Positions 5,179 to 44,852 of a DNA stretch of 64,000 nt are shown here, in pieces. The stretch lies in the NCBI RefSeq assembly GCF_055900595.2, contig NZ_CM148325.1, one strand, 5' to 3'. Numbering within the stretch: the first letter of the stretch is position 1; each line of letters begins with the position of its first letter. A program made the position numbers and the translations under genes. The notes under the pieces were generated by a model that worked only from the letters and a program-made list of their open reading frames with translations, did no database searches and was not told the DNA's origin.

Positions 5179-6576
<1,398 letters not shown>

Positions 6577-6619
6577 TTATTCAGTCGATAGTAACCCGCC
6601 CTCCGGGGATAGCAAGCAT

Positions 6620-6670
6620 TTTTTGCAAAAAGGGGTAGATGCAATCGGTTACGCTCTGTATAATGCCGCG
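6620..6670 (+). promoter_or_regulatory. Putative guaBA promoter region (-10-like TATAAT at 6659-6664)
   Basis: TATAAT hexamer about 44 bp upstream of the conserved guaB start, within the xseA-guaB divergent intergenic region; -35 not confidently assigned. Confidence 0.35.
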
Positions 6671-6707
6671 GCAATATTTATTAACCACTCTGGTCGAGAT
6701 ATTGCCC

Positions 6708-8174
6708 ATGCTACGTATCGCTAAAGAAGCTCTGACGTTTGACGACGTTCTCCTCGTTCCTGCACATTCTACCGTTCTGCCGAATACCGCTGACCTCAGC
6801 ACCCAGCTGACAAAAACTATTCGTCTGAATATCCCTATGCTCTCCGCAGCAATGGATACCGTAACGGAAGCGCGCCTGGCTATCGCCCTGGCTCAGGAAG
6901 GCGGTATCGGCTTTATCCACAAAAACATGTCCATTGAACGCCAGGCTGAAGAAGTTCGCCGCGTGAAAAAACACGAATCTGGCGTGGTAACCGATCCGCA
7001 GACTGTTCTGCCAACCACGACGCTGCGCGAAGTGAAAGAGCTGACCGAGCGTAACGGTTTTGCAGGCTATCCGGTTGTGACCGAAGAAAACGAACTGGTC
7101 GGCATTATCACCGGTCGTGACGTGCGTTTTGTTACCGATCTGAACCAGCCGGTTAGCGTTTACATGACGCCGAAAGAGCGTCTGGTAACCGTGCGTGAAG
7201 GCGAAGCCCGTGAAGTGGTGCTGGCAAAAATGCACGAAAAACGCGTTGAAAAAGCGCTGGTGGTTGATGATGAATTCCACCTGATCGGCATGATCACTGT
7301 GAAGGACTTCCAGAAAGCGGAACGTAAACCGAACGCCTGTAAAGACGAACAAGGCCGTCTGCGTGTAGGTGCAGCGGTTGGCGCAGGTGCGGGTAACGAA
7401 GAGCGTGTTGATGCGCTGGTTGCCGCAGGCGTTGACGTTCTGCTGATCGACTCCTCTCACGGTCACTCTGAAGGCGTTCTGCAGCGTATCCGTGAAACTC
7501 GCGCTAAATATCCTGACCTGCAAATCATCGGCGGCAACGTGGCAACAGCTGCAGGTGCCCGCGCGCTGGCAGAAGCCGGTTGCAGTGCCGTTAAAGTGGG
7601 TATCGGCCCAGGTTCTATTTGTACTACCCGCATTGTTACTGGCGTCGGTGTACCGCAGATCACTGCCGTTGCTGACGCAGTAGAAGCCCTGGAAGGCACC
7701 GGGATTCCGGTTATCGCTGACGGTGGTATTCGTTTCTCTGGCGATATCGCGAAAGCTATCGCTGCTGGTGCAAGCGCGGTGATGGTAGGCTCCATGCTGG
7801 CAGGTACGGAAGAATCCCCGGGTGAAATCGAACTCTACCAGGGCCGTTCTTACAAGTCTTACCGTGGGATGGGCTCTCTGGGCGCGATGTCCAAAGGTTC
7901 TTCTGACCGTTACTTCCAGAGCGACAACGCTGCCGACAAACTGGTGCCGGAAGGTATCGAAGGTCGCGTAGCCTATAAAGGTCGCCTGAAAGAGATCATT
8001 CACCAGCAGATGGGCGGCCTGCGCTCCTGTATGGGCCTGACCGGCTGTGGTACTATCGACGAACTGCGTACTAAAGCGGAGTTTGTACGTATCAGCGGTG
8101 CGGGCATTCAGGAAAGCCACGTTCACGACGTGACCATTACTAAAGAGTCCCCGAACTACCGTCTGGGCTCCTGA
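6708..8174 (+). CDS. guaB: IMP dehydrogenase
   Basis: Conserved N-terminus [25 protein letters not shown] begins at the in-frame ATG at 6708 (ORF track extends to 6639); CBS and IMPDH catalytic regions present ([11 protein letters not shown]). Confidence 0.95.
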
Positions 8175-8181
8175 TTCTCTT

Positions 8182-8202
8182 CGCCCGACTTCATGTCGGG
8201 CG
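8182..8202 (+). other. Stem-loop in the guaB-guaA intergenic region
   Basis: Inverted repeat cgcccgac-ttcat-gtcgggcg followed by an AT-rich run; possible intra-operon attenuator or processing site. Confidence 0.3.
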
Positions 8203-8242
8203 ATTTATATTATCTGTTTCACTTGCCTCGGAATAAGCGTCA

Positions 8243-9820
8243 ATGACGGAAAACATTCATAAGCATCGCATCCTCATTCTGGACTTCGGTTCTCAGTACA
8301 CCCAACTGGTTGCGCGCCGCGTGCGTGAACTGGGTGTTTACTGCGAACTGTGGGCGTGGGATGTGACAGAAGCACAAATTCGTGACTTCAATCCAAGCGG
8401 CATTATTCTTTCCGGCGGCCCGGAAAGCACCACCGAAGAAAACAGCCCGCGTGCGCCGCAGTATGTCTTTGAAGCAGGCGTACCGGTATTCGGCGTTTGC
8501 TATGGTATGCAGACCATGGCAATGCAGTTGGGTGGTCATGTTGAAGCCTCTAACGAACGTGAATTTGGCTATGCGCAGGTTGAAGTCGTAAACGACAGCG
8601 CACTGGTTCGCGGTATCGAAGATGCGCTGACAGCAGACGGTAAACCTCTGCTCGATGTCTGGATGAGCCATGGCGATAAAGTTACCGCTATCCCGTCCGA
8701 CTTCATCACCGTAGCCAGCACCGAAAGCTGCCCGTTCGCCATCATGGCAAATGAAGAAAAACGCTTCTATGGCGTACAGTTCCACCCGGAAGTGACTCAT
8801 ACCCGCCAGGGGATGCGCATGCTGGAGCGTTTTGTGCGTGATATCTGCCAGTGTGAAGCCCTGTGGACGCCAGCGAAAATTATCGACGATGCAGTAGCCC
8901 GTATCCGCGAGCAGGTAGGCGACGATAAAGTGATCCTCGGCCTCTCTGGTGGCGTGGATTCCTCCGTGACTGCAATGCTGCTGCACCGCGCAATCGGCAA
9001 AAACCTGACTTGCGTATTCGTTGACAACGGCCTGCTGCGTCTCAACGAAGCAGAGCAGGTTCTGGATATGTTTGGCGATCACTTTGGTCTGAACATTGTT
9101 CACGTTCCGGCAGAAGATCGCTTCTTGTCAGCGCTGGCTGGTGAAAACGATCCGGAAGCAAAACGTAAAATCATCGGTCGCGTTTTCGTTGAAGTATTCG
9201 ATGAAGAAGCGCTGAAACTGGAAGATGTGAAGTGGCTGGCGCAGGGTACTATCTACCCTGATGTTATCGAATCTGCCGCGTCTGCAACCGGTAAAGCTCA
9301 CGTCATCAAATCTCACCATAACGTGGGCGGCCTGCCGAAAGAGATGAAGATGGGCCTGGTTGAACCGCTGAAAGAGCTGTTCAAAGACGAAGTGCGTAAA
9401 ATTGGTCTGGAGCTGGGCCTGCCGTACGACATGCTGTACCGTCACCCGTTCCCGGGACCAGGCCTTGGCGTTCGTGTGCTGGGCGAAGTGAAGAAAGAGT
9501 ACTGCGACCTGCTGCGCCGTGCTGATGCCATCTTCATTGAAGAACTGCGTAAAGCGGACCTGTACGACAAAGTTAGCCAGGCGTTTACCGTGTTCCTGCC
9601 GGTACGTTCTGTTGGCGTAATGGGCGATGGTCGTAAATACGACTGGGTTGTGTCTCTGCGTGCCGTCGAAACCATCGACTTTATGACCGCACACTGGGCG
9701 CATCTGCCGTACGATTTCCTTGGTCGCGTTTCCAACCGCATTATCAATGAAGTGAACGGTATTTCCCGCGTGGTGTATGACATCAGCGGCAAGCCACCGG
9801 CGACTATTGAGTGGGAATGA
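8243..9820 (+). CDS. guaA: GMP synthase (glutamine-hydrolysing)
   Basis: 525-aa [43 protein letters not shown] ... PPATIEWE; class I glutamine amidotransferase plus ATP-pyrophosphatase regions. Confidence 0.95.
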
Positions 9821-15896: not shown

Positions 15897-16201
15897 TTTT
15901 AACTAACTGAAACACTAACGCTTTTCGTTAACGGACTGACGAAATAGTGTGATGCCGTTCAAAAAAATGATTCTTGCCATGCTGGACATCGAACGGTTCT
16001 GCTCCAGCGCTAATGCTTACAGTTCCGCGATTTCAGCGGGGAGCAGACGCATTGCCACCGGTTTGTTCGACATCACCCCGCGGGGTGCTCGTGAGCGTAA
16101 GACGTTCTCATTTGTTTTCATGGTGGTATATTGTGGTTATTAACATTACACAATCTATAATTCCCTCAATTGAGTGAATTGTCAATGGTAATTATATCCA
16201 A
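15897..16201. promoter_or_regulatory. Divergent switch region between ogr and the HTH repressor-like gene
   Basis: 305-bp non-coding region with AT-rich tract acaatctataattccctcaattgagtgaattgt (inverted ACAAT ... ATTGT ends) just upstream of the HTH gene. Confidence 0.4.
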
Positions 16202-16540
16202 ATGAAAGAATTTGGCATCCGTTTGAAGGAAGAACGTATCCGACTTGGCCTTGATCAAGACGGCTTTGGACAACTTGGGGGCGTGAAGAAAAACGCACAA
16301 AGTAACTATGAGAATGGACTGCGCAAGCCGGACAGTGACTATCTTGCTGGCATAGCGGCAGCGGGAGTTGATGTTCTGTATGTTCTAACAGGCAACCGCA
16401 CGCCTGTGGCTACGTTGTCCAGTAAAGAGAGTGTGTTGGTGGAGAACTATCGTTCTGCTACGCCAGAACACCAGTCCACCCTTGACACGGTTAGCGCTGC
16501 GCTTGCGCAACCGGGAGTAGGGAAAGCAGCTAAGGGATAA
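16202..16540 (+). CDS. HTH XRE/Cro-C1-type regulator, probable prophage immunity repressor
   Basis: N-terminal HTH FGIRLKEERIRLGLDQDGFGQLGGVKKNAQSNYENGLRKP; divergent from the early/late regulators; GC content like the phage backbone. Confidence 0.65.
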   Translation: MKEFGIRLKEERIRLGLDQDGFGQLGGVKKNAQSNYENGLRKPDSDYLAGIAAAGVDVLYVLTGNRTPVATLSSKESVLVENYRSATPEHQSTLDTVSAALAQPGVGKAAKG

Positions 16541-16580
16541 CGAGTAGAATGAATTTGGTTATTGTCTGTATGGAGGCAAA

Positions 16581-17153
16581 ATGAAGTTGAATAATCTGGT
16601 TGCTCTTTACAGGAACATGACAGAGCAAAAATTGGATAGGGTTAAATTCCCATACAGACACAATAATTTACATTTTGATGTATTTTTCTTTATTGATGGA
16701 AAACCGTTTGAGCTTCTTTTCGGAGCATTAGGCGCTAATCTTTGCTTTCGTCTAAAAGTCGAGAAGGGATTCGTCATAAATCCTAATCTGGGAAGTGAGA
16801 CTTATAAAGAATTATGCAAGGCGCTAGGTTTGAAATATGACCCTGCCAATCCATTTAGAACAAGTAAGTTTTTTGAAGATTTTGATGGGAAAATCCCTAC
16901 ATCGGTTACTGTTAAGAATAAGGCAAAATATACTGATATTGCTGTGCATGTCAGGGATGTTGAAGAAGCAGACAGAATATATTTCTGTGGATGGAAAAAC
17001 AACAATGAAGAAAAGAGTCATGTTACTGAAGATAATTTAAAGAAAACGAAAGAGTTTTTAGGGTATCAGGCTTTTCTTGTTTGTAAGGAAAAGAATATTA
17101 GCAGTAGATGGACTGATTTAGAAAATAAAGCAAAAGATTTTTATTTACCATAG
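16581..17153 (+). CDS. Hypothetical protein (cassette gene 1), no recognisable motif
   Basis: 190-aa ORF with RBS ggagg upstream, AT-rich codon usage, 40 bp downstream of the HTH gene. Confidence 0.5.
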   Translation: MKLNNLVALYRNMTEQKLDRVKFPYRHNNLHFDVFFFIDGKPFELLFGALGANLCFRLKVEKGFVINPNLGSETYKELCKALGLKYDPANPFRTSKFFEDFDGKIPTSVTVKNKAKYTDIAVHVRDVEEADRIYFCGWKNNNEEKSHVTEDNLKKTKEFLGYQAFLVCKEKNISSRWTDLENKAKDFYLP

Positions 17154-17167
17154 GATTGTGAGGTTAT

Positions 17168-18316
17168 ATGTCTGATATTTCATTAGGGTGCGTGGTTGTT
17201 CATAGGTTGATAAAAGAGCAACATAAAGATTTCGATCACTCAAAACCATATAGTCGCCGTGATACGGTTCTTGACCGAAATAATGAAATCGTAATTAAAC
17301 TAGTGTCCAGTATAGCCGCATTGTATGGTAAAAAATCTAATAGCTCGCATTATGGTATATTTAATTTAGATGAAACACGCAGGGGGCCTTTTCCAGCGGA
17401 ATTTGATAAATATCGGAATGATACATCCAAGAAGTTAGACGATGAATTGTTTATAGGATTATCAAAAAATGTTATGCATCAGTTATATATTGAGGCAAAG
17501 GATCGACCTGCTGCATCAGGAGGATTACTTCTTTTTGCTGATTATATCAGTAAATCCGTGCGTTACTTTCTTATTGCAATGATTAAGCAAAAGGAAGGTA
17601 TAGTTATTAGTGATAAATTAGAGCCAAAGGAGTTAGAGCATCTTGATCTGGCAAAACTAAACCAGGCGGCACGAATAAACTATGATTTGTATGATAAATA
17701 TATTTCCGCTGATGAGAATGAAAGACAGGATGTTAATTATTTAAGTTTTGTTAGTCCCAGTTCTAACCAGACAACTTCAGGGTATTTCATTACTGCCTTA
17801 GGTTGTGATAAAGGTAATACATCAACTAAAGCTACGAGTAATTTAATTAATGAATCTTTTAACTTCTTCAGAAATCATCAAGAATTAAAGGATAATGCCC
17901 GTAAATTTAAAAATGAAATTATTGAGTATTTATTCGATTGTTCTGAAAATAACATTTCAGCTAAGCTCTCTGTTGTTAGTGAGATGGCGGCGAAGCATAT
18001 GGTTAATTTAGAAGATGACATTAAAGATAAATTGTCAGAAGAATTATATGCTCATTTGAATAGTGAAAGTATTCGTGTGCCTGTGGAATTTAGGGTAAGC
18101 AAATCAGTAGTTAAGAAAAACAGAAATATTAAATATACAAGTGATAATGTTAATTTTGAGTTTAAATCTAGTTTACTAGGCAATACTCTTGATAATGAGA
18201 TATGCTATAATAAGAAAACTGGACATTTAACTTTTACTCGGATTACTCCTGAGAAAAAAAGTGAAATAGCTCAATTGCTTGATGAGTTAATAAAAGAAAG
18301 AAATAGCGAAAAATAA
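17168..18316 (+). CDS. NdpA/YejK-like nucleoid-associated-protein family member (cassette gene 2)
   Basis: N-terminal VVVHRLIKEQH and SGGLLLFADYISKSVRYFLIAMIK align by eye with YejK IALHQLIKRDE and [24 protein letters not shown] (sequence recalled from memory); further colinear similarity towards the C-terminus. Confidence 0.5.
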   Translation: MSDISLGCVVVHRLIKEQHKDFDHSKPYSRRDTVLDRNNEIVIKLVSSIAALYGKKSNSSHYGIFNLDETRRGPFPAEFDKYRNDTSKKLDDELFIGLSKNVMHQLYIEAKDRPAASGGLLLFADYISKSVRYFLIAMIKQKEGIVISDKLEPKELEHLDLAKLNQAARINYDLYDKYISADENERQDVNYLSFVSPSSNQTTSGYFITALGCDKGNTSTKATSNLINESFNFFRNHQELKDNARKFKNEIIEYLFDCSENNISAKLSVVSEMAAKHMVNLEDDIKDKLSEELYAHLNSESIRVPVEFRVSKSVVKKNRNIKYTSDNVNFEFKSSLLGNTLDNEICYNKKTGHLTFTRITPEKKSEIAQLLDELIKERNSEK

Positions 18317-18318
18317 GG

Positions 18319-18957
18319 TTGCTTAATATGTCATGTTTTGAAACGGTTGTTGAGCTTTTCAGATATGTAGGGCGTCCTAAATTTGATGCTATTAATAATC
18401 GTTTTTCAGCAACTATTTCTTATGATGCTCATATATATGAACTCTTAGTTTCTTTGCAACCTCATACAGCGTGGGGAGAAATTGAAGAGATTGTCATTGA
18501 TGATGTGGATATAGATGTTGATGATAGCCTTCCCGCTAAAGGAACATCAATAACACTGACAATCTCTATATCAACTGGAGCTAGTGAGTCATTTTTTATC
18601 GATATTAAAGATCTAATTCAAAAGTCTCCGATGTTAAATAGAGGTATTTTAAGAAAGTCTTTTTACTTGGTTGAGGAAGATTTTTATTTTAATGAAGGAA
18701 TGGTTGAGGGATTAGCAAAAATACCAGAACTATCTGTTTTAAAGAATCTTTGTGATTTTATTTTATGTCTATCAAAAGTTGCACACTACAGCAATAGTAA
18801 AAGTGATGATGTATGCCATAAGTTAGTTTTCTTGAAAAATACTAATGCTAAGTCATTACCTTTAATTATTGAAACTAATGTTGATTATTCACTTCTTTTA
18901 ACAGGTATTAAGGATTTAAAAATCATCGAATCTTTTTCTGATGAAAAAAAGCTATAA
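18319..18957 (+). CDS. Hypothetical protein (cassette gene 3)
   Basis: 212-aa ORF starting 2 bp after gene 2; acidic stretch IDDVDIDVDD; no recognisable motif. Confidence 0.5.
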   Translation: MLNMSCFETVVELFRYVGRPKFDAINNRFSATISYDAHIYELLVSLQPHTAWGEIEEIVIDDVDIDVDDSLPAKGTSITLTISISTGASESFFIDIKDLIQKSPMLNRGILRKSFYLVEEDFYFNEGMVEGLAKIPELSVLKNLCDFILCLSKVAHYSNSKSDDVCHKLVFLKNTNAKSLPLIIETNVDYSLLLTGIKDLKIIESFSDEKKL

Positions 18958-19001
18958 CGGATGATAATTATTTTGAGCGAAAAGGGATTTTCATTAATAC
19001 G

Positions 19002-19583
19002 GTGGTCGATTTTCTTGAATCAATCGATGTAAAGAAACAGTTTCATTTTTTATTCTGTGAGTGGGATGAATTTCTAAAACTATACCATAATAACCTCGGT
19101 GTATATCTTAGTGGTTTTTCATTTCATAAAGTAAGAAAGGAAGTGGCAGAGGCAGAAGCTAATTTAGCTGAGCGTTTTTCAAAAATAATGTCAGACATGA
19201 TAGCTAAGCTTTTAGGTATTCCTGTTTCTTTGGTTGCTACTTTTGGCATGATAAAATTAAATACCCTGCCGGAAATGTTAGTGGTTTTTTTAGGTGTATT
19301 GCTCACGTCGATAATTATGTTTTTTATTGTAAGAAGTCAATACACACAGTTTAGGATGATTTGTGATGCTAAAGATATTATATTTTCCCCATTAGTGAAA
19401 AAATCTGTAGGTTATACAGAAGATTTGAAAAAATTAGTATGCAATGCAAAGGATAATTTAGACAAAAATCAGGTCATGTTAAATCGTTACCTTCTTTTCT
19501 TTCAATGCTTATGCTGGATTCCGACAGCCTTAGGTGGTGGAATGATCTTAATGGCTATTATGGTTCATTTAGGATTACTATAA
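19002..19583 (+). CDS. Predicted membrane protein with two hydrophobic helices (cassette gene 4), putative effector
   Basis: Hydrophobic segments LLGIPVSLVATFGMI ... LVVFLGVLLTSIIMFFIV and LLFFQCLCWIPTALGGGMILMAIMVHLGL; 3' end overlaps the convergent gpD stop by 6 nt. Confidence 0.5.
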   Translation: MVDFLESIDVKKQFHFLFCEWDEFLKLYHNNLGVYLSGFSFHKVRKEVAEAEANLAERFSKIMSDMIAKLLGIPVSLVATFGMIKLNTLPEMLVVFLGVLLTSIIMFFIVRSQYTQFRMICDAKDIIFSPLVKKSVGYTEDLKKLVCNAKDNLDKNQVMLNRYLLFFQCLCWIPTALGGGMILMAIMVHLGLL

Positions 19584-20678
19584 ACTTAATTCCATTTCTA
19601 ATGCGGTGACATAACCAGTACCGCCATCCAACGTATGCACGCACCGCGTAATCACCCACGCGGTGCCATCAATTTCCGCCTTAAACCCCTTCACCTGCAG
19701 CGGTAATTCCGGGAACAAATCGGGCCGTCCACGCGCAAGATTCAGGCTGAACGTTGCCGCGCCGCGCTGTAGCTGCTCCCACGCGCTTTTTGCCGCTCTG
19801 TAGGCGTTATTTTTGTTGGCATAGGTGTGGCGCAGCACCTTGATATTTCCCTCTTCGCCAACCATCACGTTATCAGCATTGAATGAGGCGTCTGACGGCG
19901 GAGATTCTGTTGGTTGCGTTTGTGGACGGTTTTTCCGTGTCTTGCGCTTCATGTCAGTGGACTGCTTTTTTGCCTGCCGTGTATCCAGCCAGTAGGCCGT
20001 CACACCGGTATACGCCTCCCTGTCCGCGATGCTGAACCGGTGGCTGTCGCCGTCCTCGCGGGTAATGGTTGCGACCGGCAGCGGTTTGCCGCTGGCACTT
20101 TTACCGGAACCTGTCGGCATTAGCAGCAGAGCATCATTTTTCACGCAGGCGATAGCGCCGTGCAGTTGCGCCAGCCGGGTCAGGAAGGAGGCATCGGATT
20201 CGTTAGTCTGGTCAACGTGCTCAATGGCGATCCCAGCCAGCTCGCCGCTGACGGTTGATTCCAGCTTATGACGCGCCGCCACGGTTTGCACAATCGCGCC
20301 CAGCGTCGCATCATGGTAGCTCTGTTCCCGTTTAACGTTCAGCGAATCGCGGAAATCGGCGCTGCGGGCGCGGAGGCTGAGTACGTCCGGTGCGCCGCTG
20401 TGCTCCAGTTCGTCCACTGTGAAGACATTCTGGTGCATCACGCCGTCACCCTTCCAGCCTAGAGAAACCGTTAGCTTTTCGCCCTTTGCCGGAAACGCCA
20501 GCAGGCCGTCGCTGTCGTCCAGTTCGAGCTGCAGTTCGTCGGCCTCAAAGCCCCGGTTGTCGGTGATACGCAGGCTGATTAAGCGGTTGTCCAGATTCCG
20601 CGTAATGTCCTTACCGTTCAGCACCACGCTGTACTCCGGCTGCGGCTGGGCGTTTAAGAGTGCGTTTAACATCGTCAT
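19578..20678 (-). CDS. D: Tail protein D (P2 gpD-like)
   Basis: 366-aa ORF at the end of the tail operon, upstream neighbours U and T in P2 order; N-terminus MTMLNALLNAQPQPEYSVVLNGKDITRNLDNRLISLRITDNRG. Confidence 0.8.
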   Translation of the reverse strand: MTMLNALLNAQPQPEYSVVLNGKDITRNLDNRLISLRITDNRGFEADELQLELDDSDGLLAFPAKGEKLTVSLGWKGDGVMHQNVFTVDELEHSGAPDVLSLRARSADFRDSLNVKREQSYHDATLGAIVQTVAARHKLESTVSGELAGIAIEHVDQTNESDASFLTRLAQLHGAIACVKNDALLLMPTGSGKSASGKPLPVATITREDGDSHRFSIADREAYTGVTAYWLDTRQAKKQSTDMKRKTRKNRPQTQPTESPPSDASFNADNVMVGEEGNIKVLRHTYANKNNAYRAAKSAWEQLQRGAATFSLNLARGRPDLFPELPLQVKGFKAEIDGTAWVITRCVHTLDGGTGYVTALEMELSL

Positions 20679-21103
20679 AGTCCGTCTACCATCGTGATGA
20701 TGTCGCCCAGCAAGCCACCCAGCTTCGGCGGATCGACACGTTTTAACGCCAGCGTAAACTCAATGCGCCGGGCCGCACCGTCGCGAAAAAAGACGCTCCG
20801 GGTGACGTTCAGACTCTCAATCACAAACCAGCCATGCAGCGATCCGGTGCCTTCAATCAGCGGCCAAGCCATCCCCTGATCGGCCATCTTTCGCAGGAAA
20901 AACAGGGTAAATCGCCCGCCGGTCAGTTCCGGCAACAGCACGCCGTTTAGCGTAATGGTTTCGTCACCCACGCCGATAAACTGGCTGGCCGGACGTAGCC
21001 CCACGCGGGAACTGGCAGGATGCCGCCACGCTACGGCGTGCTGCATATCCTGATAGGGCAGGGTTTTCAGGCTGAAGACGAACAGCCCCAGTACCATCAT
21101 CAT
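20675..21103 (-). CDS. U: Tail protein U (P2 gpU-like)
   Basis: Probable start MMMVLGLFVF at 21103, just after the T stop (ORF track extends to 21211); P2 gene order. Confidence 0.75.
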   Translation of the reverse strand: MMMVLGLFVFSLKTLPYQDMQHAVAWRHPASSRVGLRPASQFIGVGDETITLNGVLLPELTGGRFTLFFLRKMADQGMAWPLIEGTGSLHGWFVIESLNVTRSVFFRDGAARRIEFTLALKRVDPPKLGGLLGDIITMVDGL

Positions 21104-21113
21104 AAGAGCCTCC

Positions 21114-23963
21114 TTAATCAATATCGCGCAGGCTGCTGCGGGTTCTGGCGGCATTCTGCCTTTCGCGCTTGTCCAGTTCCTGCGCCACCAGTTTCGCCAG
21201 TTGTTGTTCATTCATGCCGGGAGCAGCGTGGATGTGAATAGTGACAGGCCCGCCGCTGGCTGCCGGTACAGAAAGGGATGCTGGCGCGAGCGGGGCGCGA
21301 TTATCCGGCAGGGCGGCGATAGGGGGCATGGCGACAGCGGCGGCGCTGAGCGTCAGCCCGGCACCGGCGGCGATTAACTGCTTCGAGAGTTGCCCTACGC
21401 TGGCCAGCGCCGTTTGCGTGTTGCCCTCAATCCCGACCGCCAGCCCGTCCACGGTATAGCGGCCCATTTCGGCGAACACCCGCGACGGTGAATGAATACC
21501 GAGCTTGTCCTTAAACCAGTTGGAAATATTGCTGCCCAGATCCAGCACGCCCTGTTTAATCGCTTCCCATTTGGCAAAGATCCCCTGTTTCAGCCCTTCC
21601 ATGATATTGCCGCCGATCTCGGTAAAGCGGGTGGACAGGTTACTGAAACTGTTCAGAACGTTATCCCAGACTGTGGTAAACACCGTGGACAGGTTCCAGT
21701 TGGTGAAAAAAGCATTGATGGCATTCAGGGCAGTGCTGACGGTGGTTTTAATTCCCTCCCAGATACCGGTGGCGGTAGTGGTAATGCCCGTCCAGATTTG
21801 CCCCAGAAATGCCACCACGCTGTTCCACGCCTCAGCGGTACTGGCTTTGATAGTATCCCAGTGCTGGTAAATCAGGCCGGGAAGCGTCCAGTTCAGCAGG
21901 ATATTCACCAGCCCGTTCCAGCAGCCGGAGAGAAACGTTTTAATCCCTTCCCAGACGGCGCTGGTTGTGGCTTTTACACTGTTCCACGCATCGCTGCATA
22001 CCTGCTTAAAACTATTCCAGAGCGCGGCGAACTTCGGCCCCAGCCAGTCCCAGTTACTCCAGATCCAGATGGCGGCACCGGCGATCAGCGCAATCACCGC
22101 CAGAATCGGGTTAGCCATCATTGCGCGGCCCAGCCAAATTACCGCTTTTCCCGCGCCTTTAAAGGCATTCGCCAGCAGCCCCAGCGCGCTGCCGCCCTTA
22201 ATACCGAGCACCGACAGGCTGAGTTTTAGCGCCGCCATCGGGCCGAGGATACCGGCCAGCGTCAGGGATATGCCTCCGAGCGCCACGGCGAACGCGCCGA
22301 TCGCCATGCCGATTTTCACCAGCGTGGCGGTTAATTGTGGGTTGGCCTTCATCCATGCGCCGATGGACTGTAAAACGCCGGTTATGCGTTGGGTAATACT
22401 GCGCAACGGGCTGTCAACTGATTCGAACATCTCAATACCGAGATCTTCCCACGCCGAGTCAAGATTCTGGAGATCACCCTTCATATTATCGGCCATCGTT
22501 TTGGCAACTTTGCCAGCGGTACCGAGGGAGGCTTTCACCTGTTCGGCATAGGCTTCAATACGCTGCGACGGATCGAGTGACGCCTGTTTGTCGAGCAGTT
22601 CCATCATCGCGGAAGAGGCTTCCACACCGAAAATATCCTTGATGTAGGACATTTTCTTCACGTTGCCGACGCCGCCGATCCCTTGCTTCTCAAACGCGGC
22701 GGAGATTTCTGCCAGTAGCTGCGGCATCTCTTTCATTTTTCCGGTGCTGTCCGCCACCGAGACTTTCAGGTCTTCCAGCGCGGCGGCGGCTTTTTTCGGC
22801 TGTGATGCCAGCCGCAACAGCGCCATACGTAAGGATGTACCTGCCTGCGCTCCCTGAATCCCCACGTTACCCAGCATCCCGACCATCGCTGACATGGTTT
22901 CAAAGTCCTGCCCCGCAGCCTGTGCAGCCGGGCCGACGTATTTCATGGTTTCACCCAGCATCTGCAGGTCGGTATTAGACGTAGTGAACGTGAAGGTGAG
23001 CGCGTCAGCCATGCGTTGCATCTGGTCTGCCGGGATTTTATAGGCGCTCTGAATATTGGAGGCGATATCGGAAACCTGAGCAAGCTGCGTGTCCATCCCC
23101 GCCGCTTTCGCCAGATCCAACATGTGCGGCATCGCCTTTTCGATTTTATCTGGCGTGTAGCCCGCCATTGCCAGAAAACCCTGCCCCTGCGCCACATCGT
23201 TGGCGGTAAAGCTGGTTGATGCGCCTAAATCTCGCGATTGCGTTCGCAGCCGTTTCAGTTCATCAGAGTTTTTATCGGTGCGTGTTAACGCCTGTACGCG
23301 CGACATGCCCACGTCGAAATCGTAGCCGGGCATCATTACCCGCGCGCTGCCGTAAAGCATACCCACGCCGGTGGCCGTCGTGGTTGCGCCGAATCCGGCC
23401 AGTTTGTTGCGGGCGTCCATTGCTCCTGCGTAGCTATTTTTTGCTGCGTTCATCCGCTGCTGCTGCCGGTTTAGCCGTTCCAGTCGCCTGCGCTGTTCCT
23501 CCATGCTACGGTTAGCACTCTCCAGTCGTTGCCGTAGTTCACTCTGGCGCTGGCTGAGATTACGGGTATCGATACCAGCGTTGCGCAGTACGGTGCGGCT
23601 ATGCTGCTGGGCCTGAGTAAGCTGACCATGCCGTTCTTTAAGTCGCCGCGCCTCCTGCTGAGCACGTTCAAACTCCCGACGCATCGCAGCCGTGGGCGCA
23701 GTGCTGCTTTGCATTGCCGTGGCCAGCGCCCGGACGCGATCCTGCGCGCTTTTAAGCTGATTGCCGGTGACGGCGACATCGCGCGCCAGCTTGCGGTAGC
23801 CATCGATTTGTCCGGCCTGTTTGTTCAGGTCTTTGACCTGCTGCTGCGCCGCTTTCAGTGCTCTGGCGGTGTCGCTGCTGCTTTGCGTGACGGCTTTTAG
23901 CGGACGGGTGATTTTATCTACGGCGCTGAGTAGTACCTGTAAACGAAGGTTTTGTGTGCTCAT
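21114..23963 (-). CDS. T: Tail tape measure protein (P2 gpT-like)
   Basis: 949-aa ORF, coiled-coil-rich N-terminal half and Gly/Ala-rich hydrophobic middle; start overlaps the E' stop. Confidence 0.85.
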   Translation of the reverse strand: MSTQNLRLQVLLSAVDKITRPLKAVTQSSSDTARALKAAQQQVKDLNKQAGQIDGYRKLARDVAVTGNQLKSAQDRVRALATAMQSSTAPTAAMRREFERAQQEARRLKERHGQLTQAQQHSRTVLRNAGIDTRNLSQRQSELRQRLESANRSMEEQRRRLERLNRQQQRMNAAKNSYAGAMDARNKLAGFGATTTATGVGMLYGSARVMMPGYDFDVGMSRVQALTRTDKNSDELKRLRTQSRDLGASTSFTANDVAQGQGFLAMAGYTPDKIEKAMPHMLDLAKAAGMDTQLAQVSDIASNIQSAYKIPADQMQRMADALTFTFTTSNTDLQMLGETMKYVGPAAQAAGQDFETMSAMVGMLGNVGIQGAQAGTSLRMALLRLASQPKKAAAALEDLKVSVADSTGKMKEMPQLLAEISAAFEKQGIGGVGNVKKMSYIKDIFGVEASSAMMELLDKQASLDPSQRIEAYAEQVKASLGTAGKVAKTMADNMKGDLQNLDSAWEDLGIEMFESVDSPLRSITQRITGVLQSIGAWMKANPQLTATLVKIGMAIGAFAVALGGISLTLAGILGPMAALKLSLSVLGIKGGSALGLLANAFKGAGKAVIWLGRAMMANPILAVIALIAGAAIWIWSNWDWLGPKFAALWNSFKQVCSDAWNSVKATTSAVWEGIKTFLSGCWNGLVNILLNWTLPGLIYQHWDTIKASTAEAWNSVVAFLGQIWTGITTTATGIWEGIKTTVSTALNAINAFFTNWNLSTVFTTVWDNVLNSFSNLSTRFTEIGGNIMEGLKQGIFAKWEAIKQGVLDLGSNISNWFKDKLGIHSPSRVFAEMGRYTVDGLAVGIEGNTQTALASVGQLSKQLIAAGAGLTLSAAAVAMPPIAALPDNRAPLAPASLSVPAASGGPVTIHIHAAPGMNEQQLAKLVAQELDKRERQNAARTRSSLRDID

Positions 23964-24381
23964 GATTCAACACCGCTGCGCTGGCGGGCCTGCTCCCGCC
24001 AGTAAAGGGTTTCGCCAAGGGTTAATGCGTCCATCGCGGATAGTGGCCAATGGAAGATGACGGCTATGTCGCCTTGAGCCTCCTCTATGCGTCCGGGGTA
24101 TCCGTTGCTTCCGGCGAGGTCTGCGGCAAAAAACCGACAAGCGCCGTACCGAAAGCCGTCAGGTCGATAAAATCCAGTTGCGCCACCTCATGCTTATTCA
24201 GCGGCGGTGCGGTGATGCGCGGTAGAACGCTGGTGAGTGCATCTACGTTAAGGCTTAACAGCTCCACCAGACTGACACCGCGCAGGTCGCCGCCCAGTGG
24301 TTTACGGATCTGGAACTCGACAAATTCGGTTTCGCCGCGTTTCAGGGGAGTATTCAGGGTAACGGTTTTACGTTCGCTCAT
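23960..24381 (-). CDS. E': E+E' tail chaperone produced by programmed -1 frameshift
   Basis: Hand translation of the -1 frame after the heptamer (minus strand, plus coordinates 24127-24133) gives an open extension of about 55 codons ending at a TGA overlapping the T start ATG. Confidence 0.55.
24085..24381 (-). CDS. E: Tail assembly chaperone E (P2 gpE-like)
   Basis: 98-aa ORF immediately upstream of T; ends ...LVGFLPQTSPEATDTPDA with a T TTT TTG slippery heptamer near its 3' end. Confidence 0.8.
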   Translation of the reverse strand: MSERKTVTLNTPLKRGETEFVEFQIRKPLGGDLRGVSLVELLSLNVDALTSVLPRITAPPLNKHEVAQLDFIDLTAFGTALVGFLPQTSPEATDTPDA

Positions 24382-24390: not shown

Positions 24391-24906
24391 TTACAGGCCA
24401 ATGGCGCGACGTGCGCCAGCCAGACGGTCTTTGCCGTCGATATTTTCAATAAAGTTCACGGTGTCGATTTCGACGATGGTTTCACCGTTGACGCTCTCTT
24501 TGTAATAGGTACAAAGGGTGCTGATTTTGGTCGCGGAGTTCTCGCCCTGCTTGTATTCGCCGCGATCCAGCTCTTTGTGGCGACCACGCACCACGATTTC
24601 CACCGCGTCGTACTCTTCGCTGTCTTCACGCTGGATAGCGCCGGAGAATCGCAGCATCACGCCGCTGATCTTCGTCCAGCCGATCTGCCGCAGCGCCAGC
24701 AGCTCATAGCCGCCGATTGACCATTCCACGCTGAGCGCCTCGTCATCCAGTCCCAGATCGACATGCGCCGCGCCGTTCATGCCGCCGCCGCGATAGGCTT
24801 CCAGCTTGCGCGTCAGCTTTGCCGGGGTGAAGGACTCCACCTGTGCCAGATAGATATCGCCCTCGTTAAACAGGTTGAGGTATTTCAGTTTGCTGGGTAG
24901 TGCCAT
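24391..24906 (-). CDS. FII: Major tail tube protein (P2 gpFII-like)
   Basis: 171-aa ORF between the sheath gene and E, P2 order. Confidence 0.8.
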   Translation of the reverse strand: MALPSKLKYLNLFNEGDIYLAQVESFTPAKLTRKLEAYRGGGMNGAAHVDLGLDDEALSVEWSIGGYELLALRQIGWTKISGVMLRFSGAIQREDSEEYDAVEIVVRGRHKELDRGEYKQGENSATKISTLCTYYKESVNGETIVEIDTVNFIENIDGKDRLAGARRAIGL

Positions 24907-24920: not shown

Positions 24921-26096
24921 TTACACAGTGGTGGCGATGGATTCAGCCAGATTGACCAGATAGCGGTCAGTGATGCGCTGGCGGAACATCAGGTTTTCCA
25001 GCGGCGGCACCGGGGTGTAGTCGTAGTCGATATACGCTTTACCCGCTTTCAGGATGTCCGGCGTGTTGGCGGCGGGATCGAACCATGCGGAGCCGTCGAC
25101 GATGTAGCCGTTGCCTTTCAGTTCGCGGAATTTGGCGTTCACGCCTTCGATAATGTCGCGGAACAGAGAAGCGTGTTGCGGTTTATCTATCGCCCAGAAG
25201 TGGGCGTCGGCGATGGTATCCGCCAGCACCTGCGCGGTGCGGGTGTAGTTCTCAAAGGCAAACAGCGGATCGGTGCTGCAGGTGCGCGATCCCCAGAAGC
25301 GATAGCCGGCGTTGCAAATCAGCGTGGTGACGTCGTGGCTGTTGAGGTAATCCGAATCGGTGGCGGTGGACTGCAGATCCCAGAATACGCTGCGGGAAAT
25401 GCCGGTCACGCCGTTGACGTCAACGTTGGACAGCGTTTTATGCCAGCCGGTTTCTTCATCAATTTTTGCACGCAGGCCCACGGCGCGGGCGGTGGCGTAT
25501 AGGGTACGTTCGGCGGCAGCCTGTGTATCAAAGCCGACAAAATCCGGCCAGATAATCATCGCCTCTCGCGCACCTAGCTGATCGCGATACAGCACCGCCT
25601 CTTCTTTGGTCTGCGCGCCGAACGCCGACAGATAGCTGAAGGCGCGAAGCTGTTGTGAAATGCTGACCAGTTCGGTGGCGATGGGCAGAGAATCCAGCCC
25701 TGGTACCGCCAGAATGCGCGGTTTTATTTTCAGTTTGGTTTGCGAGTCCAGTAGCGCCTTCATGCCGGTGTATTTCCCGGCTGGCGTGCTGCCGCCGATG
25801 ATATTGGCGGTGGTTTCGGCGGCGGAGTCACCTTCGGCTACGCGCACGGCGACCACCACCGGCTGCGTCTGGTCGGCGATGGCATCCAGAGAGTGTGCCA
25901 GCGTACCGCTATCACCGGCTTTACCCAGCGCAGATCGCACGTCGGTTAACAGTACTGGGGTATCAAGGGGAAAGGTTTTTTCATCGGCATCTGAACCGGT
26001 ACAGACAATGCCGATCACGGCAGTGGAAATGGTACGGATCGGGCGCACGCCTTCATTGATTTCAATAACGCGCGCGCCGTGGTGGTAGTCGGTTGC
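24921..26096 (-). CDS. FI: Tail sheath protein (P2 gpFI-like)
   Basis: Strong similarity to P2 FI as recalled (MATDYHHGARVIEINEG ... YIDYDYTPVPPLENL); start chosen at MATDYHH (ORF track extends to 26186). Confidence 0.85.
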   Translation of the reverse strand, partial: ATDYHHGARVIEINEGVRPIRTISTAVIGIVCTGSDADEKTFPLDTPVLLTDVRSALGKAGDSGTLAHSLDAIADQTQPVVVAVRVAEGDSAAETTANIIGGSTPAGKYTGMKALLDSQTKLKIKPRILAVPGLDSLPIATELVSISQQLRAFSYLSAFGAQTKEEAVLYRDQLGAREAMIIWPDFVGFDTQAAAERTLYATARAVGLRAKIDEETGWHKTLSNVDVNGVTGISRSVFWDLQSTATDSDYLNSHDVTTLICNAGYRFWGSRTCSTDPLFAFENYTRTAQVLADTIADAHFWAIDKPQHASLFRDIIEGVNAKFRELKGNGYIVDGSAWFDPAANTPDILKAGKAYIDYDYTPVPPLENLMFRQRITDRYLVNLAESIATTV

Positions 26097-26204
26097 CATG
26101 AGGCGAGCCTCCATCAGGTCAATAAATGACGATGGTGGCACAGAGCGAAAAGGGCGGTGACGGCTTCCACTTGTAACCACTGGCACTACAAGCAGAAGCG
26201 GTTT

Positions 26205-26963
26205 TTAATTCAGGATAATCAGTTCTGATGTGGTGCTGGCTGGCTTTCCACCTACGGTATAGCGAATCCCTACCGTTGAGAATGTCAGGCCGTGGAAGAT
26301 ATCGCGCATTTCCGGGATGTCGTTAACCGAGATAATCATCCGGCCCTGCATGGTGCGCGCCAGCTCTGCCATACGCTGGTACTGCTCAAGGCCAAATGGT
26401 ACGCCGTAGCCTTCGGTTTTCCAGTATGGTGGGTCGCAGTAGAACAGGGTATGCGGGCGGTCATAGCGGCGAATACAGTCGGCCCAGTCCAGATTTTCAA
26501 TGCAGACGCGCGCCAGCCGCAGATGGGCGGCGGATAAATCCTCTTCCATACGCAGCAGGTTCAGGCGCGGCGGTGAGGTGGTGGCGGTACCGAACGTGCG
26601 ACTTTCCACTTTGCCGCCGAATGCCAGCTTTTGCAGATAGTAGAAGCGCGCCGCGCGCTGGATATCGGTCAGCGTTTCTTCCGGGGTGATCTGGAGCCAG
26701 CGGTACATTTCGCGGCTGACCAGCGACCATTTAAACTGGCGGACAAACTCTTCTAAATGGTGCTGAAGTACGCGGTAGAGGTTGGTAACGTCACCGTTGA
26801 TATCGTTCAGCACCTCGGCCTGTGCGGGCTGTTTCATAAAGAACAACGCTGCCGCCCCGCAGAACGGTTCAACGTAGCAGCGGTGTTTGGGAAACAGTGG
26901 CAGAATGTGTTTTGCCAGCCTGCGCTTACCGCCGATCCACGGAATAACGGGTAACGTATTCAA
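26205..26963 (-). CDS. DNA adenine (N6) methyltransferase, Dam family (copy 2)
   Basis: YVEPFCGAAALFF and FYCDPPYW motifs; sits at the position of the P2 Z/fun accessory locus between tfa/G and FI. Confidence 0.8.
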   Translation of the reverse strand: MNTLPVIPWIGGKRRLAKHILPLFPKHRCYVEPFCGAAALFFMKQPAQAEVLNDINGDVTNLYRVLQHHLEEFVRQFKWSLVSREMYRWLQITPEETLTDIQRAARFYYLQKLAFGGKVESRTFGTATTSPPRLNLLRMEEDLSAAHLRLARVCIENLDWADCIRRYDRPHTLFYCDPPYWKTEGYGVPFGLEQYQRMAELARTMQGRMIISVNDIPEMRDIFHGLTFSTVGIRYTVGGKPASTTSELIILN

Positions 26964-27427
26964 ATTGTCAATTTTCCAGACCGACTGCTGACCAACGCAT
27001 ACAGCAGATTAGGAGACCAGCGCCAACTATCGCGCAGGTGCAGAAATTCGGCGCAGAACTCGCTGCAAAACAGGCGTTCCTGTTTACCCTGACTGAGTAA
27101 CACAAAACCCATGGCGCCCAGCCAGTCGTAACCTTTATCGTCGTGCTGACGAAAAAAGGTTTCCAGTGCCAGCGGATCGGCGTTGATCGGGAGTAAATCC
27201 CATTTCTCAATCGGCAGCGGCATTCGTTTGCTGCGCACGCCTTTATCCCGTACCGATGATGAGTAACAGATAAACAGGCCATCCGGCAGGCGTTCGACCA
27301 GTTCGCAGTGAGAGTAAGGGCCGCGCGTGACCTGTCGCGTCAACCAGTCGGAGAGCCGGGCAAGGCTGAAAAAGCGTTCAGCCCGGCCACGGTAGAACGC
27401 CATGTAAACCTGACTCATGGTTGCCAT
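26960..27427 (-). CDS. Hypothetical protein, possibly permuted-papain/NlpC-P60-like (His-Cys pairs); function unknown
   Basis: 155-aa ORF overlapping the Dam start by 4 nt; motifs SHCELVE and FCSEFCAEFLH; family assignment is only a guess. Confidence 0.35.
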   Translation of the reverse strand: MATMSQVYMAFYRGRAERFFSLARLSDWLTRQVTRGPYSHCELVERLPDGLFICYSSSVRDKGVRSKRMPLPIEKWDLLPINADPLALETFFRQHDDKGYDWLGAMGFVLLSQGKQERLFCSEFCAEFLHLRDSWRWSPNLLYALVSSRSGKLTI

Positions 27428-28122
27428 CCTGATGAGTAGTCGTAACCCATAACCGCCTGCACCTCCGTCAACGCTTCAACGGCGGCAATATGCTGCTGGG
27501 CAGCGGCGAACAGGCGCATATCGTGCGCCATTGTTTCGGTTTCAAACCGGGCGGCGATCTCGTTGGTTAGTTCAATCAGGTTGTGATTTTTGGTCTGCCA
27601 CATTAAGCCTGCCGGTATTTGTTTAGCCACGCCCATTTTGGTGAGCGAGAGCTGCTGGATGCGGCTGTTAGCGTCGCTGTGGAAATGGTGATTATCGATG
27701 ATGATGTAGTCAGCGGTGATTCGATCGCGATACTGCTTTATTTCTGCCACCTTTGCCTGTCGGGCTTTTTCGATATCGGGCTGCCAGCGTTTGCCGTCCC
27801 AACGGACAAAGGCGTTATCGGGCTTCAGCAGAGTGACGTTATCCGGCAATGGCCCCAGATGATGAAGCTGTACCTCACTGCCCGCATCGGTATCAAACGC
27901 GGTTTTACCGCGATGATCTTCTACCGCAAGCCATGTTTCTCCGTTGAATGTCAGGGCAAAGCCGCTCTGGCATTCGGGCGGTTCGATAGTGGTACAGCAT
28001 TCCGGTAAGCCGGTGTTGGGGGCGATATAGGCGTCGCTGACGCCGATAAATTCCTGAGTATCTGCCGCGTAGTTAAAGATGCGCAGGGTTTGCGGTTCGT
28101 CGGAAAATGCGAATGTGCTCAT
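27415..28122 (-). CDS. G: Tail fibre assembly protein (P2 gpG/Tfa-like)
   Basis: 235-aa ORF directly downstream of the tail fibre gene; composition typical of Tfa chaperones. Confidence 0.7.
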
Positions 28123-43976: not shown

Positions 43977-44011
43977 CCCCACCAACGACCAGCTCACTAT
44001 CAGAGCCACCA

Positions 44012-44035
44012 TGCGCCATTCAGCCCGCTTCCTGC
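44012..44035 (+). terminator. Rho-independent terminator after Q
   Basis: agcccgc-ttcct-gcgggct hairpin followed by TTTTT. Confidence 0.5.
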
Positions 44036-44826: not shown

Positions 44827-44852
44827 TGATCCCTGCACTATGAATTAGCAAA

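What the first reader, a model, noticed from the sequence alone, without database searches (positions are those of the whole stretch)
23960..24381. Conserved programmed -1 frameshift (E/E') at a T TTT TTG slippery heptamer
Near the 3' end of gene E the minus strand reads GGT TTT TTG. My hand translation of the -1 frame from this site gives an open extension of about 55 codons that terminates at a TGA overlapping the ATG of tape-measure gene T, the architecture of the P2 E/E' and lambda G/GT chaperone pair.
Basis: partly seen in the sequence, partly recalled or inferred. Interest (0 to 1): 0.35.

Follow-up and report, generated by a model that had tools for sequence, protein, structure and literature searches.

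The report
P2-type tail chaperone E/E' frameshift
This is the well-known programmed -1 ribosomal frameshift that lets P2-like phages make two tail-assembly chaperones (E and the longer E+E') from one gene start; it is really there, clearly under selection, and entirely ordinary.

Summary
On the minus strand, gene E (24381..24085, 98 aa) reads GGT TTT TTG at codons 83-85. The heptamer T TTT TTG is at 24133..24127. The -1 frame from G24127 is open for 55 codons and stops at TGA 23962..23960, which overlaps the ATG of tape-measure gene T (23963).

The pattern alone could be chance: the window has 19 TTTTTTG against 17 expected, and about 5-13% of off-frame positions stay open for 55 codons. The context settles it.
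- The 140-aa fusion matches Pfam Phage_TAC_7 in the E part and Phage_P2_GpE in the -1 part.
- E lies between tube gene FII and T in a P2-order tail operon.
- In 49 of 50 related loci, with E identity down to 28%, the E' homology sits in the -1 frame.
- The heptamer bases are fixed beyond what the amino acids require.
- Substitutions in the extension are synonymous only in the -1 frame.
- The -1 frame has no start codon that could express the E' domain separately.
- There is no downstream RNA structure, as in P2.

This is the known P2 E/E+E' (lambda G/GT-type) chaperone frameshift in an uncharacterised Escherichia prophage. Novelty is nil and interest is low.

In passing: relative GMF054 has seven Ts, which fuses E and E' in frame, and a neighbouring cargo gene is split at an A7 tract.

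The parts
24085..24381 (-). Gene E: tail assembly chaperone made by standard decoding (98 aa, 10.6 kDa), with TAG stop at 24087..24085
   Evidence: ORF, translation. Pfam PF10109 Phage_TAC_7 covers residues 6-85, E=1.6e-10. PHROG 103 'tail protein', E=3e-31. 47% identity to L-413C gpE. Mass.
24127..24133 (-). Slippery heptamer T TTT TTG, in X XXY YYZ phase of the E frame (codons G83-F84-L85 span 24135..24127)
   Evidence: Sequence. The same heptamer sits at the same aligned codons in 38 of 39 close and IMG/VR loci and in 7 of 10 additional, more distant phages. In 46 distinct DNA sequences the third base of codon 83 is T in 45/45 although the amino acid varies (G/S/N/I), F84 is TTT in 45/45, and L85 is TTG in 41/43.
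23960..24127 (-). E' extension: the -1 frame read after the slip. 55 sense codons (AADLAG...RSGVES) plus TGA at 23962..23960.
   Evidence: Translation. Pfam PF06528 Phage_P2_GpE covers fusion residues 105-139, E=2.1e-14. PHROGs 6416 and 1756. Third-position bias and synonymous excess appear only in the -1 frame. No ATG/GTG/TTG in this frame between 24187 and 24034.
23960..24381 (-). E+E' trans-frame fusion product (85 + 55 = 140 aa, 15.3 kDa), junction ...VGFL|AADLAG...
   Evidence: Built. tblastn against phages finds 410 records, 336 covering at least 80% of the query; every listed row with that coverage is joined from two pieces. AlphaFold2 model has pLDDT 93.4 and pTM 0.84. Mass.
24391..24906 (-). 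Tail tube gene FII, immediately upstream. Its stop lies 9 nt before the E start.
   Evidence: PF04985 Phage_tube, E=2.8e-54. Sequence.
21114..23963 (-). Tape-measure gene T (949 aa). Its ATG (23963..23961) overlaps the E' stop as ATGA.
   Evidence: PF10145 PhageMin_Tail, E=2.3e-46. The E' stop overlaps or abuts the T start in nearly all related loci.

Best explanation
This is the E/E+E' tail-assembly-chaperone pair of a P2-like (Peduoviridae-type) prophage, expressed by programmed -1 ribosomal frameshifting.

Most ribosomes read E to its TAG and make the 98-aa chaperone. A minority pause with tRNA-Phe on UUU in the P site and tRNA-Leu on UUG in the A site. Both tRNAs slip one base back onto U UUU UU. 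Decoding resumes at GCC and continues for 55 codons, giving the 140-aa E+E'. No downstream RNA structure is needed.

By analogy with lambda G/GT, the shared E part would bind the tape-measure protein T, and the E' domain would recruit the tube protein FII so that the tube polymerises around T. The fixed slip frequency sets the E to E+E' ratio.

Shown here: the anatomy, the homology of both parts, purifying selection in the -1 frame, nucleotide-level constraint on the heptamer, and the lack of an independent start. Inferred from the literature: the tRNA re-pairing mechanism, the ratio, and the binding partners.
For: - Anatomy is exact.
- Both Pfam families are hit above their cut-offs, PF10109 in frame 0 and PF06528 in frame -1. 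PHROG tail families agree.
- Gene order is sheath, tube, E, T, U, D, as in the P2 FETUD operon.
- In 49 of 50 loci the E' homology lies in the frame one base behind E. The exception is GMF054, which has one extra T.
- T TTT TTG is conserved at the same codons down to 36% E identity. Synonymous alternatives are never used at the heptamer, while other conserved Leu, Gly, Pro and Arg columns vary freely.
- In the part read only as E', 30 of 43 variable columns fall on third positions of the -1 frame. Synonymous versus non-synonymous counts against the window are 19:6 and 17:7 in the -1 frame, but 0:24 and 2:22 if the same DNA is read in frame 0.
- The -1 frame has no ATG/GTG/TTG upstream of the conserved DIAVIFHW motif.
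- The 107 nt from the heptamer onward fold no better than shuffled sequence, z=+0.51. P2 and Burkholderia P2-like phages also lack a hairpin there (PMC3091744).
- Literature: P2 shifts -1 at TTTTTTG to give E (91 aa) and E+E' (142 aa) (PMC3091744). Efficiency in P2-like phages is 2-3 times that of lambda, whose G:GT ratio is about 30:1; the lambda G/GT mechanism is described in the same review (PMC5009743).
Against: - There is no direct evidence of the fusion protein or of a frameshift rate for this prophage.
- The heptamer and the open frame are individually unremarkable.
- The roles of the E and E' domains are taken by analogy from lambda, not from P2-specific or local data.
- Whether this prophage is still inducible was not assessed.
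Confidence: 0.95

Rival explanations
1. The fusion arises from transcriptional slippage. RNA polymerase adds one extra U while copying the T6 tract, so a fraction of mRNAs carry U7 and encode E+E' in a single frame, with junction GFF|AAD rather than GFL|AAD.
For: The site is a homopolymer. Relatives exist with seven Ts: L010 and Vibrio phage 1F53_PE003 have T TTT TTT, and GMF054 has TTTTTTTG at the DNA level. This shows that tract length can change and that a 7-T message encodes a full-length fusion.
Against: - Six bases is short for efficient polymerase slippage. From my own knowledge, known bacterial cases use runs of about 8-9 or more A/T.
- The tract is held in the exact X XXY YYZ codon phase, and the seventh base G is conserved in 41 of 43 sequences. 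Ribosomal re-pairing explains both; polymerase slippage explains neither.
- Mannheimia relatives replace the tract with G GGA AAG, which is a ribosomal slip site and not a homopolymer.
- The P2 event is described in the literature as a translational frameshift (PMC3091744; PMC5009743).
Confidence: 0.03
2. E' is a separate small gene translated from its own start, as automated annotation implies: a 42-aa 'GpE family phage tail protein' CDS in E. coli L725. No frameshift is involved.
For: RefSeq annotation of the 97%-identical prophage in L725 lists two separate CDS, 'phage tail assembly protein' and 'GpE family phage tail protein'. Several phage records do the same.
Against: - In L725 the annotated GpE start (L001 3863) lies one base before the TAG stop of E (3864-3866), so the start codon is ATA; the corresponding window codon at 24088 is also ATA.
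- The -1 frame has no ATG/GTG/TTG from 24187 to 24034. The first ATG lies after the conserved DIAVIFHW motif and would give only 24 residues.
- A separate gene would not explain the nucleotide-level fixation of the heptamer, or the -1 frame being open across the slip site in every relative.
- Curated records annotate the joined product: L-413C as E+E' and Burkholderia phage Momento as a tape measure chaperone.
Confidence: 0.015
3. The arrangement is a decayed, frameshift-mutated single gene in a defective prophage, or a chance open frame with no function.
For: Heptamers and open off-frames of this length occur by chance. Another gene of the same prophage is broken at a homopolymer, the A7 tract at 18944-18950.
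Against: The same two-frame arrangement is found in 49 of 50 loci from Escherichia, Yersinia, Klebsiella-type, Erwinia, Burkholderia, Ralstonia, Pseudomonas, Mannheimia and Vibrio phages. The -1 frame shows purifying selection. The only in-frame version is the single outlier GMF054.
Confidence: 0.005

Closest known systems
Bacteriophage P2 gpE / gpE+E' (FETUD tail operon; Christie et al. 2002, cited through PMC3091744 and PMC5009743), also annotated in Yersinia phage L-413C
   Same: - Position between FII and T.
- The same Pfam families in the same two frames.
- The identical heptamer T TTT TTG at the homologous codons.
- -1 direction.
- Similar product sizes: 98 and 140 aa here, 91 and 142 aa in P2.
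- The extension ends on the start of T.
- No downstream hairpin.
   Different: Only moderate sequence identity to the L-413C proteins (47% in E, 41% in E'). The frame-0 tail after the slip site is longer, 13 codons against 6. The overlap with T is 4 nt (ATGA) rather than 8 nt. None of these differences affects the mechanism.
Phage lambda G/GT tail assembly chaperones, and the frameshift conserved across long-tailed dsDNA phages (Xu, Hendrix & Duda 2004; Levin et al. 1993)
   Same: Two overlapping reading frames between the major tail (tube) gene and the tape-measure gene. A -1 slip near the end of the first frame gives a minor fusion product in a fixed ratio. The presumed division of labour is that the shared part binds the tape measure and the extension binds the tube subunit (PMC5009743).
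   Different: - The heptamer differs; from my own knowledge, lambda uses G GGA AAG.
- No lambda-type chaperone family was hit in Pfam at E <= 0.01.
- This is a contractile-tail phage.
- The reported efficiency in P2-like phages is 2-3 times higher than in lambda.
E/E+E' of Burkholderia P2-like phages KS5, KS14, KL3 (PMC3091744), and the related Momento and PhiBP82.2
   Same: The TTTTTTG site is conserved and the frameshift is predicted by the same comparative logic. There is no hairpin within 60 nt downstream.
   Different: Different host clade. About 43-46% identity to the window E.

Membership tests
P2-type E/E+E' tail assembly chaperone pair with -1 programmed frameshift (Peduoviridae) | Gene located between the tail tube gene (FII) and the tape-measure gene (T) of a contractile-tail operon | tested here: met
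   Order on the minus strand is sheath, tube (PF04985), E, T (PF10145), U (PF06995), D (PF05954).
P2-type E/E+E' tail assembly chaperone pair with -1 programmed frameshift (Peduoviridae) | The frame-0 product is homologous to gpE | tested here: met
   PF10109 at 41.3 bits against a cut-off of 25. 47% identity over 85 aa to L-413C gpE, E=6e-25.
P2-type E/E+E' tail assembly chaperone pair with -1 programmed frameshift (Peduoviridae) | The -1 frame extension is homologous to the E' part (Phage_P2_GpE) | tested here: met
   PF06528 at 53.2 bits against a cut-off of 23, on fusion residues 105-139. tblastn of the extension against L-413C gives 41% identity, E=2.6e-10, in the frame one behind E.
P2-type E/E+E' tail assembly chaperone pair with -1 programmed frameshift (Peduoviridae) | Slippery heptamer T TTT TTG in X XXY YYZ phase near the 3' end of E, at the homologous codons | tested here: met
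   The heptamer is at 24133..24127. It aligns with the L-413C site and with those of 45 other distinct sequences. P2 uses TTTTTTG (PMC3091744).
P2-type E/E+E' tail assembly chaperone pair with -1 programmed frameshift (Peduoviridae) | The extension has no start of its own and ends at or over the start of T | tested here: met
   No ATG/GTG/TTG in the -1 frame from 24187 to 24034. The TGA overlaps the ATG of T. The overlap is conserved in relatives.
P2-type E/E+E' tail assembly chaperone pair with -1 programmed frameshift (Peduoviridae) | Both E and E+E' are actually made, in a set ratio, and both are needed for tail assembly | not testable with these tools
   Needs protein detection and genetics. 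The only indirect evidence is purifying selection on the -1 frame.
Lambda G/GT-type chaperones (sequence family) | Sequence or fold homology to the lambda/HK97 G-type chaperone | tested here: inconclusive
dnaX / IS-type -1 frameshift sites with a stimulatory 3' RNA structure | A stable hairpin or pseudoknot 5-9 nt downstream of the heptamer | tested here: not met
   The MFE of the 107 nt from the heptamer onward is -27.4 kcal/mol, against -29.3 +/- 3.7 for shuffles (z=+0.51); 133 of 200 shuffles fold at least as well.
Programmed transcriptional slippage sites | A long homopolymeric A/T run, about 8-9 or more (threshold from my own knowledge) | tested here: not met
   The run is T6 followed by a conserved G.

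The most novel reading that the evidence does not exclude
The most novel reading left open concerns coupling to T.

The E' stop always sits on the start codon of T: ATGA here, and an overlap of 1-11 nt in nearly all relatives. The conserved C-terminal R-S-G codons (AGCGGNG) provide only a weak Shine-Dalgarno-like sequence. So part of tape-measure translation could come from termination-reinitiation by the ribosomes that frameshifted. The slip rate would then set how much T is made relative to E+E', as well as the E to E+E' ratio.

A second minor possibility is that tract-length variants such as the T7 allele of GMF054 are real and viable, which would mean that a P2-like phage can live on E+E' alone.
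Probability: 0.07. Interest if true: 0.35.

Novelty: already known. Interest (0 to 1): 0.06.

Why it matters
Its value is mainly for annotation. Automated pipelines split this locus into a 'phage tail assembly protein' and a 42-aa 'GpE family' CDS that starts at ATA (L725). In GMF054, where a seventh T is present, they call a single fused CDS. Recognising the frameshift gives the correct 140-aa product.

The comparative data also give a clean example of nucleotide-level constraint on a slip site: T in 45/45, TTT in 45/45 and TTG in 41/43 sequences, while the neighbouring amino acid varies. Biologically it adds nothing to what is known from P2 and lambda.

Tried and rejected
- **Downstream stimulatory RNA structure.** The 107 nt from the heptamer onward fold no better than shuffled sequence. 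Rfam at gathering thresholds finds nothing anywhere in the window.
- **NCBIfam.** No model hits E or the fusion.
- **PDB by sequence.** No relative found.
- **Close phage relatives at the DNA level.** None found in INPHARED; only the tube gene aligns, at about 69%. Comparisons therefore used 37 IMG/VR loci retrieved with the tube protein, three E. coli prophages and 10 phages found by tblastn.
- **Primary P2 paper.** Christie et al. 2002 is not held in the library. P2 facts are cited through PMC3091744 and PMC5009743.
- **Independent initiation of E'.** Rejected, because there is no canonical start.
- **Chance.** Rejected on conservation, not on the pattern itself.
- **tRNA scan of the window.** No tRNA genes found.
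Full report
**1. Observation**

Tail genes lie on the minus strand in this order:

| Gene | Coordinates | Evidence |
|---|---|---|
| Sheath | 26186..24921 as the maximal ORF; the annotated homologue in E. coli L725 spans 1,179 bases | Sheath Pfam domains |
| Tube FII | 24906..24391 | PF04985 |
| E | 24381..24085, 98 aa | PF10109 |
| Tape measure T | 23963..21114, 949 aa | PF10145 |
| U | 21211..20675 | PF06995 |
| D | 20678..19578 | PF05954 |

- Codons 83-85 of E read GGT TTT TTG at 24135..24127. The heptamer T TTT TTG (24133..24127) is therefore in X XXY YYZ phase.
- Exact translation of the -1 frame from G24127 gives 55 sense codons: AADLAGSNGYPGRIEEAQGDIAVIFHWPLSAMDALTLGETLYWREQARQRSGVES.
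- The frame then stops at TGA 23962..23960, which overlaps the ATG of T (ATGA).
The finding's coordinates, 23960..24381, are exactly the E+E' span.

**2. Is it more than chance?**

The pattern alone is not.
- TTTTTTG occurs 19 times in the window against 17.35 expected.
- Among 84 in-frame X XXY YYZ heptamers in six-frame ORFs, 8 have -1 extensions reaching at least 20 codons past the stop.
- 4.9% of off-frame positions in these tail genes have at least 55 open codons ahead. Base composition predicts 13%.

The case therefore rests on homology and comparative evidence.

**3. Homology of both frames**

- The predicted 140-aa fusion (...VGFL|AADLAG...) matches Pfam Phage_TAC_7 on residues 6-85. 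It matches Phage_P2_GpE on residues 105-139, inside the -1 part. Both are above the curated cut-offs.
- PHROG tail families agree.
- tblastn of the fusion against 50,697 phage records finds 410 records, and 336 cover at least 80% of the query. Every listed row with that coverage is joined from two pieces.
- The record of Yersinia phage L-413C, a Peduovirus, annotates E+E' as similar to P2 gpE with a -1 frameshift. Its E is 47% identical and its E' is 41% identical to the window's.

**4. Comparative test**

Loci compared: 37 IMG/VR loci retrieved with the tube protein, three E. coli prophages and 10 diverse phages.

- The E' homology lies in the frame one base behind E in every locus except E. 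coli GMF054.
- T TTT TTG sits at the same aligned codons in 38 of 39 of the closer set; L010 has T TTT TTT.
- It is also present in Erwinia ENT90, two Ralstonia phages, two Burkholderia phages, a Pseudomonas phage and E. coli P88.
- The variants are themselves slippery: G GGA AAG in a Mannheimia phage, and T TTT TTC and T TTT TTT in Vibrio phages.
- Extensions are 54-59 codons, 70 in P88.

*Codon usage in 46 distinct sequences.*
- The amino acid at position 83 varies (G, S, N, I), yet the third base of its codon is T in 45/45.
- F84 is TTT in 45/45.
- L85 is TTG in 41/43.
- Other conserved Leu columns are mostly CTG with free synonymous variation.
- This is constraint on the nucleotides themselves, as expected for a slip site.

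*Substitution pattern among eight close relatives.*
- In the stretch read only as E', 30 of 43 variable columns fall on the third position of the -1 frame.
- Synonymous versus non-synonymous codon differences from the window are 19:6 (GMF054) and 17:7 (L005) in the -1 frame.
- The same DNA read in frame 0 gives 0:24 and 2:22.

**5. Alternatives**

*A separate E' gene.*
- RefSeq annotates a 42-aa 'GpE family' CDS in the 97%-identical L725 prophage.
- Its start (L001 3863) lies one base before the TAG stop of E (3864-3866), so the start codon is ATA; the corresponding window codon at 24088 is also ATA.
- The -1 frame has no ATG/GTG/TTG from 24187 to 24034. The first ATG lies after the conserved DIAVIFHW motif.

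*Transcriptional slippage.* It cannot be excluded from sequence alone, but four points argue against it:
- The tract is short (T6).
- Codon phase and the seventh base G are conserved.
- Mannheimia phages substitute G GGA AAG, which is not a homopolymer.
- The literature describes the P2 event as translational (PMC3091744; PMC5009743).

The two mechanisms predict different junction residues, Leu for ribosomal slippage and Phe for a U7 transcript, so mass spectrometry would decide.

*A decayed gene.* This is ruled out by the breadth of conservation.

**6. Mechanism**

*Shown here.* Anatomy, homology, selection, lack of an own start, and absence of a downstream structure. The 107 nt from the heptamer onward have an MFE of -27.4 kcal/mol against -29.3 +/- 3.7 for shuffles, z=+0.51. 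P2 and Burkholderia P2-like phages also lack a hairpin.

*Inferred.*
- Tandem re-pairing of P-site tRNA-Phe (UUU to UUU) and A-site tRNA-Leu (UUG to UUU), with decoding resuming at GCC.
- A slip rate of several per cent. The review PMC5009743 gives a lambda G:GT ratio of about 30:1 and a rate 2-3 times higher in P2-like phages.
- A division of labour like lambda G/GT: the shared part binds the tape measure, and the extension recruits the tube subunit.

*Structure.*
- An AlphaFold2 model of the fusion, built from a 22-sequence alignment, is confident (pLDDT 93.4, pTM 0.84): a beta hairpin followed by helices, with E' contributing three helices.
- Foldseek against the PDB finds nothing.
- BFVD matches include proteins named tape measure chaperone.
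- I treat the fold link to lambda-type chaperones as suggestive only.

**7. Context**

- The flanking chromosome (guaB-xseA-guaA) is 100% identical to a handful of genomes labelled E. coli and 90-95% identical to 5,407 others. The host is therefore a divergent Escherichia lineage.
- The prophage tail region occurs in only 3 of 5,426 complete E. coli genomes.
- No close phage relative exists in INPHARED at the DNA level.

**8. Verdict**

This is the textbook P2 E/E+E' frameshift in an uncharacterised prophage: already known in kind, with the same protein families and the same heptamer. Its only practical value is correcting automated annotation.

**9. Seen in passing**

- **GMF054 tract lengths.** GMF054 has TTTTTTTG, which fuses E and E' in one frame. 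It also has A8 where the window has A7 in a neighbouring cargo gene. Both may be homopolymer sequencing errors or real alleles.
- **Split cargo gene.** The cargo gene at 18319..19583 is one 418-aa ORF in GMF054 and in two Logan (public sequencing-run assembly) contigs. In the window it is split exactly at an in-frame A AAA AAG. A -1 slip there would restore the wild-type junction DEKK|AITDD.
- **Variable cargo island.** The low-GC island at 16-20 kb (DUF6037, an NA37 nucleoid-associated protein and this unknown membrane-like protein) differs between related prophages.

Noticed in passing
L003 2070..2492 (E. coli GMF054, NZ_CM183924.1), homologous to window 24381..23960: GMF054, the 93%-identical prophage, has TTTTTTTG (seven Ts) instead of six. 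E and E' are therefore fused in one frame (140 aa, junction GFF|AAD) and annotated as a single 'GpE family' CDS. This is either a homopolymer sequencing error or a natural allele that makes only E+E' and no E.
   Followed up: partly
window 18319..19583 (+), A7 tract at 18944..18950: Two adjacent ORFs (212 and 193 aa, no Pfam or PADLOC hit) are a single 418-aa gene in GMF054 (A8 tract), in Logan contig L051 (AAGAGA) and in L052 (AAAAAGG), and in about 406-aa homologues down to 27% identity. The window lacks one base, and the break falls on an in-frame A AAA AAG three codons before the stop. A -1 slip there would restore exactly the wild-type junction DEKK|AITDD. It could be a pseudogene, a sequencing error, or a leaky 'corrected' frameshift.
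   Followed up: partly
window 16000..20000 (+ strand genes 16581..19583): A low-GC (36-38%) cargo island lies next to tail gene D. It encodes DUF6037, an NA37-type nucleoid-associated protein and the split unknown gene. It is present in GMF054 and in Logan contig L051, next to an Ogr/Delta gene. In L725 and CEC15 it is replaced by a cargo that includes a 'GTP pyrophosphokinase'. It has no PADLOC hits and may be an accessory or defence hotspot.
   Followed up: partly
L001 3863..3991 (E. coli L725), equivalent to window 24088..23960: RefSeq annotates the E' region as an independent 42-aa 'GpE family phage tail protein'. Its start lies one base before the TAG stop of E, so the start codon is ATA. 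This is an artefact of not modelling the frameshift.
   Followed up: yes
window 23963..23990 (minus strand) and the homologous positions in L001-L050: The E' stop overlaps or abuts the start codon of T in nearly all relatives, by 1-11 nt. The conserved C-terminal R-S-G codons of E' (AGCGGNG) form a weak Shine-Dalgarno-like element 9-13 nt upstream of T. This raises the possibility that T translation is coupled to the frameshifted ribosomes.
   Followed up: partly
window 26205..27427 (-): A D12-class DNA adenine methyltransferase (252 aa; best PADLOC match a Type II MTase model, E=1.6e-114) and an unknown 155-aa ORF are inserted between the tail-fibre assembly gene (DUF4376, 27415..28122) and the sheath gene. 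From my own knowledge, this is where P2 carries its Z/fun accessory locus.
   Followed up: no
window 5179..9000 (guaB-xseA-guaA): The host backbone is 100% identical to only a few genomes labelled E. coli and 90-95% identical to 5,407 others. The window therefore comes from a divergent Escherichia lineage rather than typical E. coli.
   Followed up: no
L044 (Mannheimia phage 535AP1), L050 and L045 (Vibrio phages): Within the same E/E' family the slip site is sometimes swapped. It is G GGA AAG (the lambda-type heptamer, from my own knowledge) in Mannheimia, and T TTT TTC or T TTT TTT in Vibrio phages. The site has been replaced while the two-frame architecture was kept.
   Followed up: partly
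P0005 (249 aa; named in NCBI as an E. coli hypothetical protein, also held by ENA; 47 member sequences): Another copy of the cargo gene is intact at the A tract. Its C-terminal residues (QFHFYSVSGMNF) fit the loss of one T in the tract corresponding to window ~19045 (protein level only; its DNA was not examined). This is a second homopolymer break in the same gene.
   Followed up: no
window 44000..48000: A second lower-GC zone (42-46%) lies inside or at the edge of the prophage, around ORFs 44918..45991 (-) and 46845..49088 (+, 747 aa). It was not examined.
   Followed up: no
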